This document shows, piece after piece, positions 32,001 through 38,000 of a stretch of DNA of 64,000 nucleotides. The position numbers are program-made. This stretch comes from Escherichia coli (GTDB lineage Bacteria; Pseudomonadota; Gammaproteobacteria; Enterobacterales; Enterobacteriaceae). Within the stretch, counting starts at the first letter, position 1, and each line of letters begins with the position of its first letter. The stretch lies in NCBI RefSeq assembly GCF_003334765.1, contig NZ_QOWT01000001.1; one strand, 5' to 3'.

Positions 32001-35000
32001 GTTTGTCTGCGGCGTCTGGGAATGCGCAAATGGAATAACCATTCAGTGGGTTATCGCCGTGGCGAAGCGCCAGAAAAGCCGCCGGGCCGTGGCAAAGGGA
32101 GATAACAAAACGGTCATTTTTGATTGCCCACTGTAAAGCGGCAGCTACGTCCTGGCTTTCAGGTAAACCAATAAGTGCGCCATGACCACCAGGAACAAAG
32201 ATTGCTGCATATTCGCTATCAGCGTTGAGGCTGGCGACAACATCCGCGAGTTTCTTCGGATTGCGGAACAACGATTTATGCTGCTCAAAGAATGGCATTA
32301 CTTTTTCATCTTTGTGCGGCATAGCCCAGTATTCAAACTTGGTCATCAGACCGGAAATGGTCGCCACTTCGAATTCGAAACCTGCAGCATGGAGATGATA
32401 CAACGGCAGCAACGTTTCAATCGGATGGTTACCGGTCGAGAACAGTTTTCCGTTATCGGTCGGCAAATAACGTTCGTCCGCGGCGATCACCAGAATTTTA
32501 TGTTTACCGCGATAAGGTTTTGGATAGTCCACGCCATCAAGATCAGAGACAGGACTGGTATATTGGCTAAGCGAATATTCTGAAGGAAAGAATGCATTAT
32601 CTTCAGCAATATCGACCTGCGGATTTTTACTTGTTTGAACAGTCATAGTGTATTCCTTATTATTGCTTAGTTAGGGTAGTCACTATATTTGCGACTGAGC
32701 TGGTCGCTATTTTTAACCAGGCTGGAAAATTGAGTCAATATATCGAAAGCGGTAGTCGGCGGGTGTAAGTATGTAATGATGATGCTGCACTGGTGTTGAA
32801 TATTATTCACGCCAAATTTTCCTTATTGAGCAACGTCGTCGCAAGTGGCCTCAATGATTTTAGACCATTATCAGAGGTACGGGGCGGCGGGGAGAGATTT
32901 AGTGATGTGGAATATTGTGGTGCTGATGAATATTTATATCCCGGATTGGTGGAGAAAAAGCTTTTTCCATGCACTTTTTTTGCAAAAATTTCTATATGGG
33001 AGGCGTGTTTGTTGCGGATTAATTCATAAAGAAATGTATTTGGAGTGTTGGCTGGAAGAGTAGCTGGTAGAAGATATTGTGCCAGGAGGGGCAGGGTAAG
33101 GTGGTGTATCGATATGCTTTGGCAATTGCGTGTGCCGCAGATGGAGATGAAATGCCAATAAAAAAGCCTGAGTTCGATGAGGGACGAACTCAGGCTAGTG
33201 TTAAGTTTTACAGTAACACGCCGCGGCGCGTCGGCTGATTAGAACTGGTAGACGATACCAACTGCAAACTGGTCATCAGCTGCTGCGCCAGTAATGGCGG
33301 CGTCATCTTTATCCAGCATGTTGAATTTGTATGCAGTATAAACGTTCATGTTCTTATTAAAGTAGTACCAGGTACCAACTTCAATGTAGTTCACACGGTC
33401 AGCGTCAACATATCTATGTCCAGGTACCCCTTTGATATCTTTACCTTTAGAGTACACATAACCTAAGGACGGACGCAGACCAAAGTCGAATTGATACTGA
33501 ACAACCGCTTCAAAGTTCTGGGTTTCATTGATAAGTTGATCACGCATTATTGTATTGCCTTCTCGATCGGCAACACCTGTATCAATAGAACCCGGAGTCA
33601 TATTACGAGTTTCGCCGTACATTACAGCTGCGTAGACATTGTTCGCGTCATACTTTGCAGCCAACGACCACAGTTCAGCATTTGAACCGTTTCCATCGGC
33701 AACTTGATCGTTGGTGCGATCAGATTTGCTATATGCACCAACGATACCAAAACCATTGATGTTATAGTCTACAGACAACGCATAGCCGTCACCATTTTGT
33801 TTCTTAGTGCTACGGTTGCTGTTTTTGCCTTGGTACTGAATCGCAAAATCAAGACCATCAACCAGGCCAAAGAAATCATAGTTACGGTAGGTTGCAACAC
33901 CGTTGGTACGACCATTCATGAAGTTGTCAGCGGAAGCCCAGGAATCGCCACCCCATTCAACTAACATATCGGTATAAGCTGCGGCATCATAAGCAACACC
34001 GTAGTTACGGCCATAGTCAAATGATCCTAACTCGTTATATTTCAAACCGGCGAAGGTTAAACGGGTTTTTTCCTGGTTTTCACCTTCGGGCTTGCTGGCG
34101 TCGAGGTTGTATTCAAACTGACCAAAACCAGTCAGTTCGCTGGTGATTTGGGTTTCACCTTTAACACCGAAACGAGCATAGGAGGTATCTTCGTTTTCGC
34201 TGTTATTATCATCAGTATTTGACCAGATGCGTTCGCCAACCATCTTGCCGTAGAAATCAACTTTATTGCCATCTTTATTATAAATTTCAGCCGCATTTGC
34301 TGCGCCAGCAACTAATAACGCCGGGACCAGCATTGCCAGAACTTTTCTTTTCATTATGTATTCCCTTGTGATTATAATCTTCATGAATATATCAATAAGT
34401 GCCGTTATCCAAAAAAAAGCACATTTGGATACTATTCTATGAAGTTCATTTTATTTTAAGGATTACATGTAACAAATGTATTTAAAAGATTTCAAAATGT
34501 TTCTAATCTATTTAATATAATTCAGAATTATGAATTCTAAATATAAATATTCATGAAAATTATAAATGTATATCAATATGTTATGAGTTGGGTGGAAACA
34601 TAGGGGGTGTCAATGATTGTTGCGCTAAACGGCTGGTGTGATCACGCGCACATTAATGAAGGCATAAAAAAAAGCCGGCATCATGCCGGCCCAAAAAATA
34701 TAAACAAGACGATAAAAGGCTAATAACGGAGGCATCATGACACAGAATAATAAAAAGGTATAATTGTAATCAGTGCTAATATATTGATTGAATGAATTAA
34801 TAAAGCCGATCTCAAAGATAAATAAAATCGCTCAAAACGATTTTTCCTGTATTCACTGCCGTTGCGCAAAAATTATCTATTTGTTCAAAAAATGAGTGAG
34901 TCTTGACTGGCTCATCCAATGTGGAAAAATGTGACTTTTATCACATAATAGTACTAAGTCTGAATTTTCCGGGTTATCTCAAAATGGAATACGGTTCGAC

Positions 35001-38000
35001 AAAGATGGAAGAGAGACTCTCTCGCAGCCCTAGTGGCAAACTGGCTTTGTGGGCTTTCTATACATGGTGTGGCTATTTCGTCTGGGCAATGGCGCGTTAC
35101 ATCTGGGTGATGAGCCGGATCCCCGATGCCCTCGTGTCGGGATTTGAAAGCGATTTAGGCTCTACCGCGGGAAAGTGGTTAGGGGCACTGGTCGGATTTT
35201 TATTTATGGCTCTGGTCGGGGCATTGTTAGGCAGCATTGCCTGGTACACCCGACCTCGTCCCGCACGTAGCAGACGCTATGAATAAAAACTGCTAAGGTG
35301 GCGACTCTTTGGCAACGGAGCGCGTATGGACTTACAACACTGGCAGGCACAGTTCGAAAACTGGTTGAAAAACCATCATCAGCACCAGGACGCGGCCCAT
35401 GACGTGTGTCATTTTCGCCGCGTCTGGGCTACGGCACAGAAGCTGGCGGCAGATGATGACGTCGATATGCTGGTGATTTTAACAGCCTGTTATTTTCACG
35501 ATATTGTGAGCCTGGCGAAAAATTATCCGCAAAGGCAGCGTTCTTCAATCCTGGCGGCAGAAGAGACGCGTCGCCTGCTCCGTGAAGAGTTCGTGCAATT
35601 TCCGGCGGAGAAAATCGAGGCCGTTTGTCATGCCATTGCCGCTCACAGTTTCAGCGCGCAAATCGCCCCCTTAACCACGGAAGCTAAAATCGTCCAGGAT
35701 GCGGATCGGCTGGAAGCCCTGGGGGCGATTGGCCTGGCGCGCGTGTTTGCCGTTTCAGGGGCATTGGGCGTGGCGCTGTTTGATGGCGAAGATCCGTTCG
35801 CACAGTATCGCCCGCTTGATGATAAACGCTACGCGCTGGATCATTTCCAGACTAAGTTGTTGAAGCTACCGCAAACCATGCAAACCGTAAGAGGCAAGCA
35901 GCTGGCGCAGCACAACGCGCAATTTTTAGTCGAGTTTATGGCGAAGCTCAGTGCCGAACTGGCGGGGGAGAATGAAGGTGTCGATCACAAGGTGATAGAT
36001 GCGTTTTCACCCGCGGGCTGAGCGCGTGGCCCTAAATGGCTGTAATTATGTTAACCTGTCGACCATCTCAGATGGCCGGTTAAATCTATGCAGGAAAATA
36101 TATCAGTAACCGATTCATACAGCACCGGGAATGCCGCACAGGCAATGCTGGAGAAACTGCTGCAAATTTATGATGTTAAAACGCTGGTGGCTCAGCTTAA
36201 TGGTGTGGGTGAGAATCACTGGAGCGCGGCAATTTTAAAACGTGCGCTGGCGAATGACTCGGCATGGCACCGTTTAAGTGAGAAAGAGTTCGCCCATCTG
36301 CAAACGTTGTTACCCAAACCACCGGCACATCATCCGCATTATGCGTTTCGCTTTATCGATCTATTTGCCGGAATTGGCGGCATCCGTCGCGGTTTTGAAT
36401 CGATTGGCGGACAGTGCGTGTTTACCAGCGAATGGAACAAACATGCGGTACGCACTTATAAAGCCAATCATTATTGCGACCCGGCGACGCATCATTTTAA
36501 TGAAGATATCCGCGACATCACCCTCAGCCATAAAGAAGGCGTGAGTGATGAGGCGGCGGCGGAACATATTCGTCAACACATTCCTGAACACGATGTTTTA
36601 CTGGCCGGTTTCCCTTGTCAGCCATTTTCGCTGGCTGGCGTATCGAAAAAGAACTCGCTCGGGCGGGCGCACGGTTTTGCCTGCGATACTCAGGGCACGC
36701 TGTTCTTTGATGTGGTGCGCATTATCGACGCGCGTCGTCCGGCGATGTTTGTGCTCGAAAACGTCAAAAACCTGAAAAGCCACGACCAGGGTAAAACGTT
36801 CCGCATCATCATGCAGACGCTGGACGAACTGGGCTATGACGTGGCTGATGCAGAAGATAACGGGCCGGACGATCCGAAAATCATCGATGGTAAACATTTT
36901 CTGCCGCAGCACCGTGAACGCATCGTGCTGGTGGGTTTTCGTCGCGATCTTAACCTGAAAGCCGATTTTACTCTGCGTGATATCAGCGGATGTTTCCCTG
37001 CGCAGCGAGTGACGCTGGCGCAGCTGCTGGACCCGATGGTCGAGGCGAAATATATCCTGACGCCGGTACTGTGGAAGTACCTCTATCGATATGCGAAAAA
37101 ACATCAGGCGCGCGGTAACGGCTTCGGTTATGGAATGGTTTATCCGAACAATCCGCAAAGCGTCACCCGTACGCTGTCTGCGCGTTATTACAAAGATGGC
37201 GCGGAAATTTTAATCGATCGCGGATGGGATATGGCCACGGGTGAAAAAGACTTTGACGATCCGCTGAATCAGCAACATCGTCCACGTCGGTTAACGCCTC
37301 GGGAATGCGCGCGCTTAATGGGTTTTGAAGCGCCGGGAGAAGCGAAATTCCGCATTCCGGTTTCGGACACTCAGGCCTATCGCCAGTTCGGTAACTCGGT
37401 GGTCGTGCCGGTCTTTGCCGCGGTGGCAAAACTGCTTGAGCCAAAAATCAAACAGGCGGTGGCGTTGCGTCAGCAAGAGGCACAACATGGCCGATGTTCA
37501 CGATAAGGCCACACGCAGCAAAAATATGCGCGCGATTGCCACGCGTGATACGGCGATTGAGAAGCGCCTCGCCAGTTTGTTAACCGGGCAGGGACTGGCG
37601 TTTCGCGTTCAGGACGCCAGTCTGCCCGGACGCCCGGATTTTGTCGTTGATGAATATCGCTGCGTGATATTTACCCATGGCTGCTTCTGGCATCATCATC
37701 ACTGCTATCTGTTTAAAGTGCCTGCGACTCGAACCGAGTTCTGGCTGGAGAAGATAGGTAAAAATGTTGAGCGCGATCGCCGCGATATCAGTCGCTTGCA
37801 GGAACTCGGCTGGCGCGTATTGATTGTCTGGGAGTGCGCGTTACGTGGGCGCGAGAAGCTGACGGATGAAGCGCTTAGCGAGCGTCTGGAAGAGTGGATC
37901 TGCGGCGAAGGTGCCAGCGCGCAGATCGACACGCAGGGGATTCATTTACTCGCTTGATGCGTCCTGAATAACTGGCGCAACTACGGGTTTTGCCGGAAAG

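What the first reader, a model, noticed from the sequence alone, without database searches (positions are those of the whole stretch)
34903..35286. yedR start probably mis-set; CRP site lies inside the longest ORF
The longest ORF begins at a TTG (34903) and would contain a perfect TGTGA-N6-TCACA CRP-type site at 34930-34945. An internal ATG at 34984 gives a 100-aa two-helix membrane protein and leaves the CRP site in a promoter position.
Basis: seen in the sequence. Interest (0 to 1): 0.25.

Follow-up and report, generated by a model that had tools for sequence, protein, structure and literature searches.

The report
drpB start and CRP operator
The gene is E. coli drpB (formerly yedR): its true start is the ATG at 34984, as already published, and the stretch once annotated as its first 21-27 codons is really its promoter, which carries a strong CRP-binding site conserved across enteric bacteria and lying directly on the transcription start sites.

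Summary
The longest ORF is TTG 34903..35286 (127 aa). A perfect TGTGA-N6-TCACA lies at 34930-34945; it is the only one in the window, with 0.02 expected. ATG 34984 gives 100 aa.

Yahashiri et al. 2020 showed that translation starts at this ATG ("ATG-22") and that the promoter lies upstream of it. K-12 RefSeq now carries the 100-aa protein. A 2026 Footprint-seq preprint lists this palindrome as a CRP site with Kd about 1.9 nM, but still calls it internal to yedR.

This analysis adds four points:
- Both published 5' ends (window 34936 and 34956) lie downstream of the TTG and GTG starts.
- In 52 orthologous loci from about 20 genera, 51 keep the palindrome with 0-1 mismatch, 47-69 nt upstream of the conserved ATG, while the spacer varies. 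The upstream frame is broken by stops and by a 5-nt deletion in E. albertii.
- The start shared by the family is the next ATG (35005). ATG 34984 is an Escherichia and C. amalonaticus extension, and PGAP annotates 93 aa in two other E. coli strains.
- The CRP site is centred at +2.5 and -18.5 relative to the two TSSs. That is repressor geometry, not class I or II activation. Repression itself is inferred, not shown.

The parts
34984..35286 (+). drpB (formerly yedR) coding sequence, 100 aa, small inner-membrane cell-division protein. ATG 34984 is the experimentally determined start ('ATG-22').
   Evidence: PMC7648144; K-12 NP_416472.3, 100 aa; NCBIfam NF038392 div_DrpB_YedR, 146.5 bits against a cutoff of 50. 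One search shows third-position substitution bias after 35005.
35005..35007 (+). Second in-frame ATG ('ATG-29'). This is the start conserved in orthologues of about 20 genera, and the start PGAP annotates (93 aa) in two other E. coli genomes, one of them 100% identical to the window across this region.
   Evidence: 282-nt drpB CDS; ATG present at the homologous position in 49 of the 52 loci tabulated; three lack it: TAT in Kluyvera genomosp. 3, L037, and AGG in the two Salmonella loci, L048 and L057; and directly preceded by a stop in several Klebsiella/Raoultella/Enterobacter loci; family profile starts right after this Met.
34903..34983 (+). Former 'N-terminal' part of the long ORF. It is in fact non-coding: the core promoters and the 5' UTR of drpB.
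   Evidence: TSSs at 34936 and 34956 lie downstream of TTG 34903 and GTG 34921. There is no codon-position bias. Orthologues carry stops and a frameshifting indel here.
34930..34945 (.). Consensus CRP operator TGTGACTTTTATCACA, with A/T-rich flanks aaa...taa.
   Evidence: unique in the window, 0.02 expected. (Footprint-seq Kd 1.9 nM for the identical K-12 sequence). (half-sites TGTGA and TCAC invariant in 52 of 52 site-anchored loci while the N6 spacer varies).
34922..34930 (+). Candidate extended -10 (TGgAAAAAT) of the upstream promoter P_a, paired with the -35-like TTGACT at 34903-34908. Its last T is the first T of TGTGA. The homologous hexamer is TATAAT in 26 orthologous loci.
   Evidence: TTGACT-16-AAAAAT with TG; TSS 2033469, which is window 34936; conserved T-A-(T/A)-A-A-T fused to the left half-site. 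The assignment of hexamers to this TSS is inferred.
34936..34936 (+). TSS of P_a. The transcript is reported to span drpB-yedJ-dcm-vsr. The CRP site centre is at +2.5.
   Evidence: SMRT-Cappable-seq table, PMC6131387 supplementary file 4: b1963|b1962|b1961|b1960, TSS 2033469 reverse.
34944..34949 (+). -10 hexamer CATAAT of the downstream promoter P_b (-35-like TGGAAA at 34922-34927, 16-bp spacer). It overlaps the last two bases of the CRP site.
   Evidence: It lies 7 nt upstream of the mapped TSS 34956. The M1 construct of PMC7648144, which begins at GTG 34921, still expresses without inducer.
34956..34956 (+). TSS of P_b, giving a 28-nt leader to ATG 34984. The CRP site centre is at -18.5.
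   Evidence: Kim et al. 2012 supplement: NC_000913.2 2031473(-), 7 reads, upstream sequence ending ...ATAATAGTACTA. Yan et al. 2018: 2033449 reverse.
34667..34756 (-). rseX small RNA (Hfq-binding, targets ompA and ompC) with its terminator hairpin at 34672-34692. It is a neighbour of the drpB unit, not part of it.
   Evidence: Rfam RF01401, 99 bits against a gathering score of 50; terminator scan; K-12 annotation b4603.
34637..34652 (.). Second CRP site (TGTGATCACGCGCACA), on the porin (yedS) side of rseX.
   Evidence: Footprint-seq Kd 4.9 nM for the K-12 variant TGTGATCAGGCGCACA, labelled 'yedS'. The ETEC H10407 ChIP-seq peak is assigned to CGTGATCTCGCGCACA.

Best explanation
The locus is drpB (formerly yedR). 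It encodes a 100-aa, two-transmembrane-helix inner-membrane protein that assists cell division.

Shown by others:
- Translation starts at ATG 34984.
- The native promoter lies between GTG 34921 and that ATG.
- Two 5' ends map at 34936 and 34956.
- CRP binds the palindrome at 34930-34945 in vitro with Kd about 2 nM.

Shown here:
- Region 34903-34983 does not evolve as coding sequence.
- The palindrome is kept, at 0-1 mismatch, in 51 of 52 orthologous loci from about 20 genera of Enterobacteriaceae, 47-69 nt upstream of the conserved ATG. Its spacer drifts freely.
- A -10-like hexamer is fused to, inside, or abutting the palindrome in most of them.

Inferred:
- The CRP dimer would cover about -6 to +10 of promoter P_a, and the spacer and first bases of the -10 of promoter P_b.
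- cAMP-CRP and RNA polymerase should therefore exclude each other.
- CRP would then repress drpB, and also the read-through drpB-yedJ-dcm-vsr transcript, when cAMP is high. Expression would rise when cAMP falls.
For: Start codon:
- PMC7648144: stops at codons 23 and 30 abolish function. Only the GTG-1 plus ATG-22 double Ala mutant abolishes it. Only the M22-sized DrpB-GFP is seen from the chromosome.
- K-12 RefSeq carries the 100-aa protein.

TSSs downstream of the old starts:
- Kim 2012, 2031473(-) in version 2 coordinates, maps to window 34956.
- Yan 2018, 2033449 and 2033469, map to 34956 and 34936.
- No other TSS is listed for 2033420-2033519 in that table.

Non-coding upstream region:
- Variable sites by codon position are 11/5/6 upstream, against 6/7/43 in the core. 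Synonymous:non-synonymous counts are 11:19 against 92:27.
- Orthologues have stops directly upstream of their ATG, and E. albertii has a 5-nt deletion.

CRP site:
- It is unique in the window, with 0.02 expected.
- Kd is 1.9 nM.
- Conservation is 0 mismatches in 39 loci and 1 mismatch in 12, of 52.
- In the 52 site-anchored sequences (the window included, the degenerate L033 left out), TGTGA and TCAC are invariant, while spacer columns carry only 0.2-0.9 bits.

Overlap with the core promoter:
- The left flank (A at -4, -2 and -1 in 46, 49 and 48 of 52) is much more conserved than the mirror-image right flank (28-32 of 52). It reads T-A-(T/A)-A-A-T.
- Plus-strand -10-like hexamers with at least 5 of 6 matches sit at offset -5 in 26 loci, inside the spacer in 9, and at +14 to +19 in 9.

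The site belongs to drpB rather than rseX:
- rseX is detectable only in the Escherichia, Salmonella and C. amalonaticus loci, whereas the palindrome persists in the other 16 loci scanned.
Against: - No experiment seen here shows that CRP changes drpB transcription in either direction.
- In vivo occupancy of this particular site is undocumented. The only ChIP-seq peak found in this intergenic region (ETEC H10407) coincides with the neighbouring site B, about 290 bp away, once the coordinate offset is corrected.
- The Footprint-seq authors class the site as novel, meaning it is more than 500 bp from any previously described CRP site.
- The region is AT-rich and may be occupied by nucleoid proteins in vivo. 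This is my inference and was not tested.
- The 34936 TSS is at a T and comes from one long-read dataset.
- The -35 and -10 assignments are consensus matches only (one search finds 5 promoter-like sites against 3.8 expected).
- drpB is strongly induced at pH 4.4 together with glpD, a CRP-activated gene, so that dataset does not point cleanly to CRP derepression.
Confidence: 0.62

Rival explanations
1. The functional start in E. coli is really the family-conserved ATG at 35005 (93 aa), as PGAP annotates, and ATG 34984 is a minor or incidental start.
For: - ATG 35005 is conserved in nearly all orthologues. In several genera it is the only possible start, because a stop lies directly upstream.
- The NCBIfam profile begins right after it.
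- The seven codons between the two ATGs evolve without visible constraint within Escherichia: MEYGSTK, MEHGSTT, MENGSTA, MERVSTT, with synonymous:non-synonymous 4:6.
- An engineered M29 protein is functional.
- A Western blot cannot easily separate 100-aa from 93-aa fusions. This last point is my inference.
Against: - In K-12 a stop at codon 23 abolishes complementation, and the GTG-1/ATG-22 double Ala mutant abolishes it even though ATG-29 is intact. ATG-29 alone therefore does not give enough protein in its native context.
- ATG 34984 is conserved in all seven Escherichia sequences and in the C. amalonaticus group.
- The 27 nt around it (34962-34988) are invariant across Escherichia.
Confidence: 0.12
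2. CRP activates drpB from this site, through an unmapped class II-type promoter starting near 34979 or by some unconventional mechanism. This is roughly what the first reader's phrase 'promoter position' implies.
For: - Most high-affinity intergenic CRP sites are activating. This rests on general knowledge.
- ATG 34984 lacks a Shine-Dalgarno sequence. A very short leader from a start near 34979 would fit SD-independent initiation.
Against: - No TSS is listed between 34957 and 34984 in either dataset examined.
- The sequence at the expected -10 (34967-34972, TTCCGG) is not -10-like.
- The site's distance to the ATG varies from 47 to 69 nt among genera, while a -10-like hexamer always overlaps the site itself.
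Confidence: 0.12
3. The palindrome serves the divergent side of the intergenic region (rseX or the yedS porin) and only happens to lie near drpB.
For: - The intergenic region is shared with rseX and an intact porin gene on the other strand.
- CRP does bind in this region in vivo in ETEC.
- The porin-drpB-yedJ-dcm-vsr synteny is conserved in Klebsiella.
Against: - The site is about 181 bp from the rseX start and about 550 bp from the porin start codon.
- A separate CRP site (34637-34652) lies on the porin side.
- 15 of the 16 scanned loci with no detectable rseX still keep the palindrome at 0-1 mismatch within 47-69 nt of the drpB ATG; L039 was scanned in place of L038, with the same result.
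Confidence: 0.06
4. The 121- or 127-aa ORF is real and the CRP site is intragenic, as older annotation and the 2026 Footprint-seq table state.
For: - The frame is open from 34903 in E. coli and its closest relatives.
- When transcribed from a foreign promoter, GTG-1 can initiate and gives a functional 121-aa protein.
Against: - Native transcripts start downstream of both codons.
- Only the M22-sized protein is seen from the chromosome.
- The frame is closed or shifted in E. albertii and other genera.
- There is no coding-type substitution pattern.
Confidence: 0.02

Closest known systems
DrpB/YedR of E. coli K-12 (b1963; Yahashiri et al. 2020, J Bacteriol 202:e00284-20)
   Same: It is the same gene. 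The window is identical to K-12 from 34897 to 35010. It gives the same 100-aa product apart from strain polymorphisms and has the same neighbours: rseX, yedJ and dcm.
   Different: Nothing essential differs. Here the upstream porin gene yedS is intact (381 aa), whereas in K-12 it is a pseudogene.
CRP-repressed promoters in which the operator overlaps the -10 element or the start site. From memory, not checked here: cyaA P2, and CRP repression of spf and azuC.
   Same: A consensus CRP site lies on the core promoter elements and TSS, so bound CRP would be expected to exclude RNA polymerase.
   Different: Repression at drpB has not been demonstrated. The operator here is a perfect palindrome and is conserved across about 20 genera. 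The register of the -10 hexamer relative to the site shifts between clades: fused to the left half-site, inside the spacer, or abutting the right half-site.
Class I and class II CRP-activated promoters (lac, galP1)
   Same: They share the 16-bp TGTGA-N6-TCACA recognition sequence with A/T-rich flanks.
   Different: Site centres relative to the mapped TSSs are +2.5 and -18.5, not -61.5, -72.5 or -41.5. No TSS or -10 element is found at the class II distance.
Other mis-annotated bacterial start codons corrected by experiment or comparative analysis
   Same: A gene caller extended the ORF to the longest frame. The extension swallowed the promoter and a regulator-binding site.
   Different: Here three annotations coexist: 121 aa (old), 100 aa (experiment, K-12 RefSeq) and 93 aa (PGAP, family-consistent). 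The experimentally used start is not the phylogenetically conserved one.

Membership tests
DrpB family (NCBIfam NF038392 div_DrpB_YedR; Pfam PF28000) | Score above the curated equivalog cutoff over the full profile | tested here: met
   146.5 bits against a cutoff of 50, profile positions 1-85 of 86 matched to residues 9-93 of the 100-aa protein; homologues carry PF28000.
DrpB family (NCBIfam NF038392 div_DrpB_YedR; Pfam PF28000) | Small protein with two transmembrane helices, and conserved synteny with yedJ-dcm-vsr | tested here: met
   Synteny is shown. The second helix is clear by hydropathy (residues about 64-88). The first, aromatic-rich segment did not pass my simple 19-residue threshold, so for it the two-helix topology rests on PMC7648144.
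CRP (cAMP receptor protein) binding site | TGTGA-N6-TCACA palindrome with A/T-rich flanks | tested here: met
   perfect match, unique in 64 kb, flanks aaa/taa.
CRP (cAMP receptor protein) binding site | Binding by purified CRP | not testable with these tools
   Taken from the literature. Footprint-seq on K-12 DNA gives Kd about 1.9 nM for the identical 21-mer (PMC12871828 Table 1).
CRP (cAMP receptor protein) binding site | Evolutionary conservation of the half-sites but not the spacer | tested here: met
   51 of 52 loci have 0-1 mismatch. TGTGA and TCAC are invariant, and spacer columns carry 0.2-0.9 bits.
CRP (cAMP receptor protein) binding site | In vivo occupancy (ChIP) | tested here: inconclusive
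   The ETEC ChIP-seq peak in this intergenic region maps to the other site (34637-34652 equivalent) after correcting a coordinate offset of about 177-197 bp. No K-12 ChIP record was found.
CRP (cAMP receptor protein) binding site | CRP-dependent change in transcription of the adjacent gene | not tested
   No crp or cya expression data for drpB could be retrieved.
Class I / class II CRP-activated promoter | Site centred near -41.5 (class II) or -61.5, -72.5, -82.5 or -92.5 (class I) relative to a mapped TSS | tested here: not met
   Centre 34937.5 against TSS 34936 gives +2.5, and against TSS 34956 gives -18.5. No TSS is listed at the class II distance.
rseX sRNA (Rfam RF01401), neighbouring feature | Covariance-model score above the gathering threshold, with a terminator | tested here: met
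   99 bits against 50, full-length match at 34667-34756 (-); terminator at 34692-34672.

The most novel reading that the evidence does not exclude
A perfectly palindromic CRP operator fused to the -10 element has been kept for the whole history of the Enterobacteriaceae drpB locus. It would make the division-accessory protein DrpB a cAMP-repressed, 'carbon-rich or low-cAMP' function. Through the read-through drpB-yedJ-dcm-vsr transcript, it might also do the same for Dcm methylase and Vsr repair endonuclease. This would link catabolite status to septation efficiency and to cytosine methylation and very-short-patch repair. It might also explain the strong drpB induction under severe acid and fluoride stress.
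Probability: 0.3. Interest if true: 0.45.

Novelty: already known. Interest (0 to 1): 0.2.

Why it matters
The practical point is annotation hygiene. Three different starts for one small gene circulate: 121, 100 and 93 aa. Because of the old start, a high-affinity regulatory site is still being tabulated as 'intragenic' in 2026.

Biologically, how drpB is regulated is unknown. A consensus CRP operator lying on the start sites and conserved across about 20 genera is a concrete, easily testable lead: is this division protein, and possibly the downstream dcm-vsr genes, under catabolite control? The locus is also a clear case where the start codon used experimentally in E. coli is a lineage-specific extension rather than the family-conserved start.

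Tried and rejected
- Thomason 2015 dRNA-seq paper: not held.
- Cappable-seq supplement (Ettwiller 2016): no rows in the coordinate range, probably because the files were truncated when stored.
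- Search for a K. pneumoniae TSS at the homologous promoter in the Kim 2012 supplement, using sequence strings: nothing found.
- CRP ChIP-exo supplements (Latif 2018) hold no yedR, drpB, rseX, yedS or yedJ entries. The Kim 2018 and Pal 2022 supplements are not held. No in vivo CRP-dependence data were therefore obtained.
- ETEC ChIP-seq peak: it first looked closer to the drpB site. Calibration against the yedP site showed that the paper's coordinates are offset by about 177-197 bp from NC_017633.1. The peak therefore belongs to the other CRP site.
- RNA folding of the leader and start region (34956-35075): no structure beyond shuffled controls, z = 0.45. I found no structural explanation for the preference for ATG 34984 over 35005.
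- A sigma-E promoter, suggested by an 'RpoE' regulator label in a table of PMC10100675: I saw no convincing GGAACTT/TCAAA arrangement by eye. Not pursued.
- A minus-strand promoter at class I distance from the CRP site (GATAAT at 34877-34872): rejected as weak. The hexamer is not conserved even in K-12 and no TSS supports it.
- tblastn of strain MLI104K2, which lacks most of the region: the script failed on a missing file. Not pursued.

Full report
**What is there**

The window around the finding is the E. coli yedS-rseX-drpB-yedJ-dcm region.
- The ORF listing shows an intact 381-aa porin gene on the minus strand (33239..34384). On the plus strand it shows the 127-aa ORF from TTG 34903 to 35286, then yedJ (35326..36021) and dcm (36088..).
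- Rfam finds the sRNA rseX at 34667-34756 on the minus strand, 99 bits against a gathering score of 50. Its terminator hairpin is at 34672-34692.
- A megablast against complete E. coli genomes finds the region in 4,911 of 5,426 genomes, annotated 'drpB: cell division protein DrpB | yedJ'.
- Window 34897-35010 is base-for-base identical to K-12 MG1655.
- Window position w maps to NC_000913.3 coordinate 2033421 - (w - 34984).

**Check of the observation**

- The TTG-initiated 127-aa ORF is there.
- TGTGACTTTTATCACA lies at 34930-34945. It is the only perfect TGTGA-N6-TCACA in 64 kb, against 0.02 expected from shuffles.
- An in-frame ATG at 34984 gives 100 aa.
- Two further in-frame candidates matter: GTG 34921, the former database start (121 aa), and ATG 35005 (93 aa).

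**The start codon is already settled in the literature**

Yahashiri et al. 2020 (PMC7648144) renamed yedR to drpB. [quoted passage not shown] Counting from GTG 34921, codon 22 is 34984.
- A stop at Ile10 did not abolish complementation, whereas stops at codons 23 and 30 did.
- Only the double GTG-1/ATG-22 to Ala mutant lost function.
- A chromosomal drpB-gfp fusion gave only the M22-sized protein.
- A construct beginning at GTG-1 was expressed without inducer, while constructs beginning at ATG-22 or ATG-29 were not. This places the promoter between 34921 and 34984.

K-12 RefSeq now carries the 100-aa protein: 2033119..2033421, NP_416472.3.

PGAP annotates a 282-nt (93-aa) drpB starting at 35005 in the strain that is 100% identical to the window, and also in ETEC H10407. 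That agrees with the NCBIfam equivalog model NF038392, whose first profile position aligns just after that Met. It disagrees with the experiment.

**Independent transcript evidence**

- In the supplement of Kim et al. 2012, a TSS is listed at NC_000913.2 2031473(-) with 7 reads. Its upstream sequence ACTGGCTCATCCAATGTGGAAAAATGTGACTTTTATCACATAATAGTACTA ends at window 34956.
- The SMRT-Cappable-seq table of Yan et al. 2018 lists TSS 2033449 (34956), TSS 2033469 (34936, transcript b1963|b1962|b1961|b1960) and TSS 2033099 (35306, upstream of yedJ).
- That table has no other TSS between 2033420 and 2033519.

Both drpB 5' ends lie downstream of TTG 34903 and GTG 34921. Native mRNAs therefore cannot use those codons.

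A protein search found DrpB homologues (PF28000) in Escherichia, Citrobacter, Klebsiella, Lelliottia and others. Outside Escherichia the annotated lengths are mostly 89-93 aa, and they begin at the Met aligned with E. coli ATG-29. I then fetched 55 orthologous loci from a one-genome-per-species collection and walked each reading frame upstream.
- The ATG homologous to 35005 is present in nearly all loci. In several Klebsiella, Raoultella and Enterobacter loci it is directly preceded by a stop.
- The ATG homologous to 34984 exists only in Escherichia and the C. amalonaticus group.
- In E. albertii, a 5-nt deletion between the palindrome and the ATG, plus a stop, closes the long frame.
- Among six Escherichia sequences, variable sites by codon position are 11/5/6 in 34903-34983, against 6/7/43 after 35005. 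Synonymous:non-synonymous codon changes are 11:19 against 92:27.

The residues upstream of 34984 are therefore not conserved and do not evolve as coding sequence. The interpretation survives its own test.

One refinement follows. The seven codons 34984-35004 also show no visible constraint (MEYGSTK, MEHGSTT, MENGSTA, MERVSTT). E. coli's experimentally used start is thus a lineage-specific extension of a family whose ancestral start is 35005.

**The CRP site**

- The 2026 Footprint-seq preprint (Wang, Stringer and Wade, PMC12871828) lists taTGTGAtaaaagTCACAttt among 'novel CRP sites' with Kd 1.9 nM. This is the reverse complement of window 34927-34947. The preprint labels it '(yedR)', meaning internal to a gene, a consequence of the obsolete start.
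- The same table lists a second site, ggTGTGAtcaggcGCACAtta (window 34637-34652), with Kd 4.9 nM under 'yedS'.
- In ETEC H10407, ChIP-seq gives one high-confidence peak for 'yedR/ETEC-specific' with motif CGTGATCTCGCGCACA. I calibrated the paper's coordinates against the yedP site; the offset from NC_017633.1 is about +177 to +197 bp. After that correction the peak coincides with the second site, not the drpB site.

Binding to the drpB site is therefore shown in vitro, but its occupancy in vivo is not documented.

**Conservation of the site**

- I searched the 260 nt (and in the site-anchored analysis the 120 nt) upstream of the conserved ATG in 52 orthologous loci for the best match to TGTGA-N6-TCACA. 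The match has 0 mismatches in 39 loci and 1 mismatch in 12, and always lies 47-69 nt from the ATG. Only one Leclercia sequence is degenerate.
- The chance of a match with at most 1 mismatch in about 105 positions is about 3e-3 per locus. This is my calculation.
- In the site-anchored alignment, TGTGA and TCAC are invariant (52 of 52), the final A is kept in 41 of 52, and the six spacer columns carry only 0.2-0.9 bits.
- This pattern indicates selection on a protein-binding site rather than general sequence conservation.
- rseX is detected only in the Escherichia, Salmonella and C. amalonaticus loci among the 20 scanned. The palindrome persists in the rest, so it belongs to drpB rather than rseX.
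- Synteny of porin(-)/drpB/yedJ/dcm/vsr holds in Klebsiella.

**Geometry and likely mechanism**

Relative to the two mapped starts, the site centre (34937.5) is at +2.5 for TSS 34936 and at -18.5 for TSS 34956.

Consensus scanning gives two candidate promoters:
- TTGACT(34903)-16-TGgAAAAAT(34922-34930), which fits the 34936 start.
- TGGAAA(34922)-16-CATAAT(34944-34949), which fits the 34956 start.

Across genera, the left flank of the palindrome is far better conserved than its mirror-image right flank. A is found at -4, -2 and -1 in 46, 49 and 48 of 52 loci, against T in 28-32 of 52 on the right. The left flank reads T-A-(T/A)-A-A-T, with its last T being the first T of TGTGA.

Plus-strand hexamers with at least 5 of 6 matches to TATAAT sit at that position in 26 loci, inside the spacer in 9 (Citrobacter TGTGATTATAATCACA) and just right of the site in 9 (Escherichia, Salmonella).

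A -10 element overlapping the operator is therefore the conserved theme, although its register slides between clades. This is the geometry of steric repression, not of class I or class II activation. No TSS or -10 element exists at the class II distance.

I therefore infer that cAMP-CRP represses drpB, and with it the long drpB-yedJ-dcm-vsr transcript. This step is inference: I found no crp or cya expression data for drpB.

drpB is strongly induced at pH 4.4 (mRNA log2 change 5.3, ribosome footprints 6.35). Induced alongside it are ybiJ and yhcN, two other genes with novel high-affinity CRP sites in the Footprint-seq table. glpD, which is CRP-activated, is induced too, so this is only suggestive.

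**Comparison with known systems, and novelty**

- The gene is DrpB itself, not a relative.
- The start-codon correction is published and incorporated in the K-12 reference.
- The CRP site is published as an in vitro binding site.
- New here, and modest, are four points: the site is promoter-embedded rather than intragenic; it overlaps both mapped starts; it and the overlapping -10 are conserved throughout the family's range; and PGAP's 93-aa call conflicts with the experimental start.
- The finding is therefore filed as already known. The CRP-repression hypothesis would be a new member of a known kind of regulation if confirmed.

**Verdict**

- Observation: confirmed.
- Interpretation: supported, with the two refinements above.
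- Interest: low (0.2), because the main claim is textbook-level annotation repair that others have already made. The residual value is a clear, cheap experimental lead on drpB regulation and an annotation inconsistency worth reporting.

Noticed in passing
window 35005 (also L001 2121-2402, L058 979-1260): RefSeq/PGAP annotates drpB as 93 aa (start 35005) in the 100%-identical strain 2017C-4173W12 and in ETEC H10407. K-12 RefSeq has the experimentally supported 100 aa (start 34984). The NCBIfam profile NF038392 begins just after the second Met, which probably drives the PGAP choice.
   Followed up: yes
window 34637-34652: A second CRP site, TGTGATCACGCGCACA, lies just beyond the rseX terminator on the porin side. 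It has Kd 4.9 nM in Footprint-seq and is the site that coincides with the ETEC ChIP-seq peak. It probably belongs to the yedS porin promoter region.
   Followed up: partly
window 34667-34756 (-): The rseX sRNA sits between the porin gene and drpB. Rfam detects it only in the Escherichia, Salmonella and C. amalonaticus loci. It is absent at the gathering threshold from Klebsiella, Kluyvera, Raoultella, Enterobacter, Lelliottia, Leclercia, Trabulsiella, Atlantibacter and Silvania loci, which nevertheless keep drpB and its CRP site.
   Followed up: partly
window 34962-34988: The 27 nt AATTTTCCGGGTTATCTCAAAATGGA, which span the end of the leader and ATG 34984, are invariant in six Escherichia sequences, although flanking non-coding and even coding positions vary. 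There is no Shine-Dalgarno sequence. This could be a translation-initiation or sRNA-target element. Folding gave no significant structure.
   Followed up: partly
window 33239-34384 (-): The porin gene upstream (yedS homologue, 381 aa by the longest ORF) is intact here and in ETEC. In K-12 it is a pseudogene (b4496).
   Followed up: no
window 35306; 35326-36021: An additional TSS (NC_000913.3 2033099) lies in the 39-nt drpB-yedJ spacer. It appears in both TSS datasets, so yedJ-dcm-vsr is also transcribed independently of drpB.
   Followed up: no
L048 and L057 (Salmonella enterica subsp. diarizonae and arizonae), about 2486-2530: The family-conserved ATG is AGG in these two Salmonella subspecies. 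A TTG three codons upstream, preceded by GGAG at a 6-nt spacing and directly after a TAA stop, is the likely start. The CRP palindrome is perfect and is followed by TATAAT.
   Followed up: partly
L066 (E. coli 2017.18.04CC) 1088-1840: An IS1A element, with deletion of the hchA 3' end, yedS and rseX, replaces everything upstream of about window 34972. This natural variant lacks the drpB promoter and CRP site but keeps both ATGs.
   Followed up: partly
PMC4287617 Table 1 against NC_017633.1: Peak-centre coordinates in the ETEC ChIP-seq table are about 177-197 bp lower than the positions of the listed motifs in the current RefSeq record, checked at the yedP and yedR entries. Anyone mapping those peaks needs to allow for this.
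   Followed up: yes
window 34919-34923: The old annotated start is part of an ATGTG (overlapping ATG and GTG). For this reason yedR appears in a published list of AUGUG start sites (PMC9841429), with no SD sequence and no detected protein. That entry is an artefact of the obsolete annotation.
   Followed up: no
drpB expression (PMC10746267 Table 3; PMC10100675): yedR/drpB is among the 20 most induced genes at pH 4.4 and is listed as induced by fluoride. The co-induced ybiJ and yhcN also carry newly found high-affinity CRP sites. A shared low-pH/CRP regulatory logic is possible but untested.
   Followed up: no
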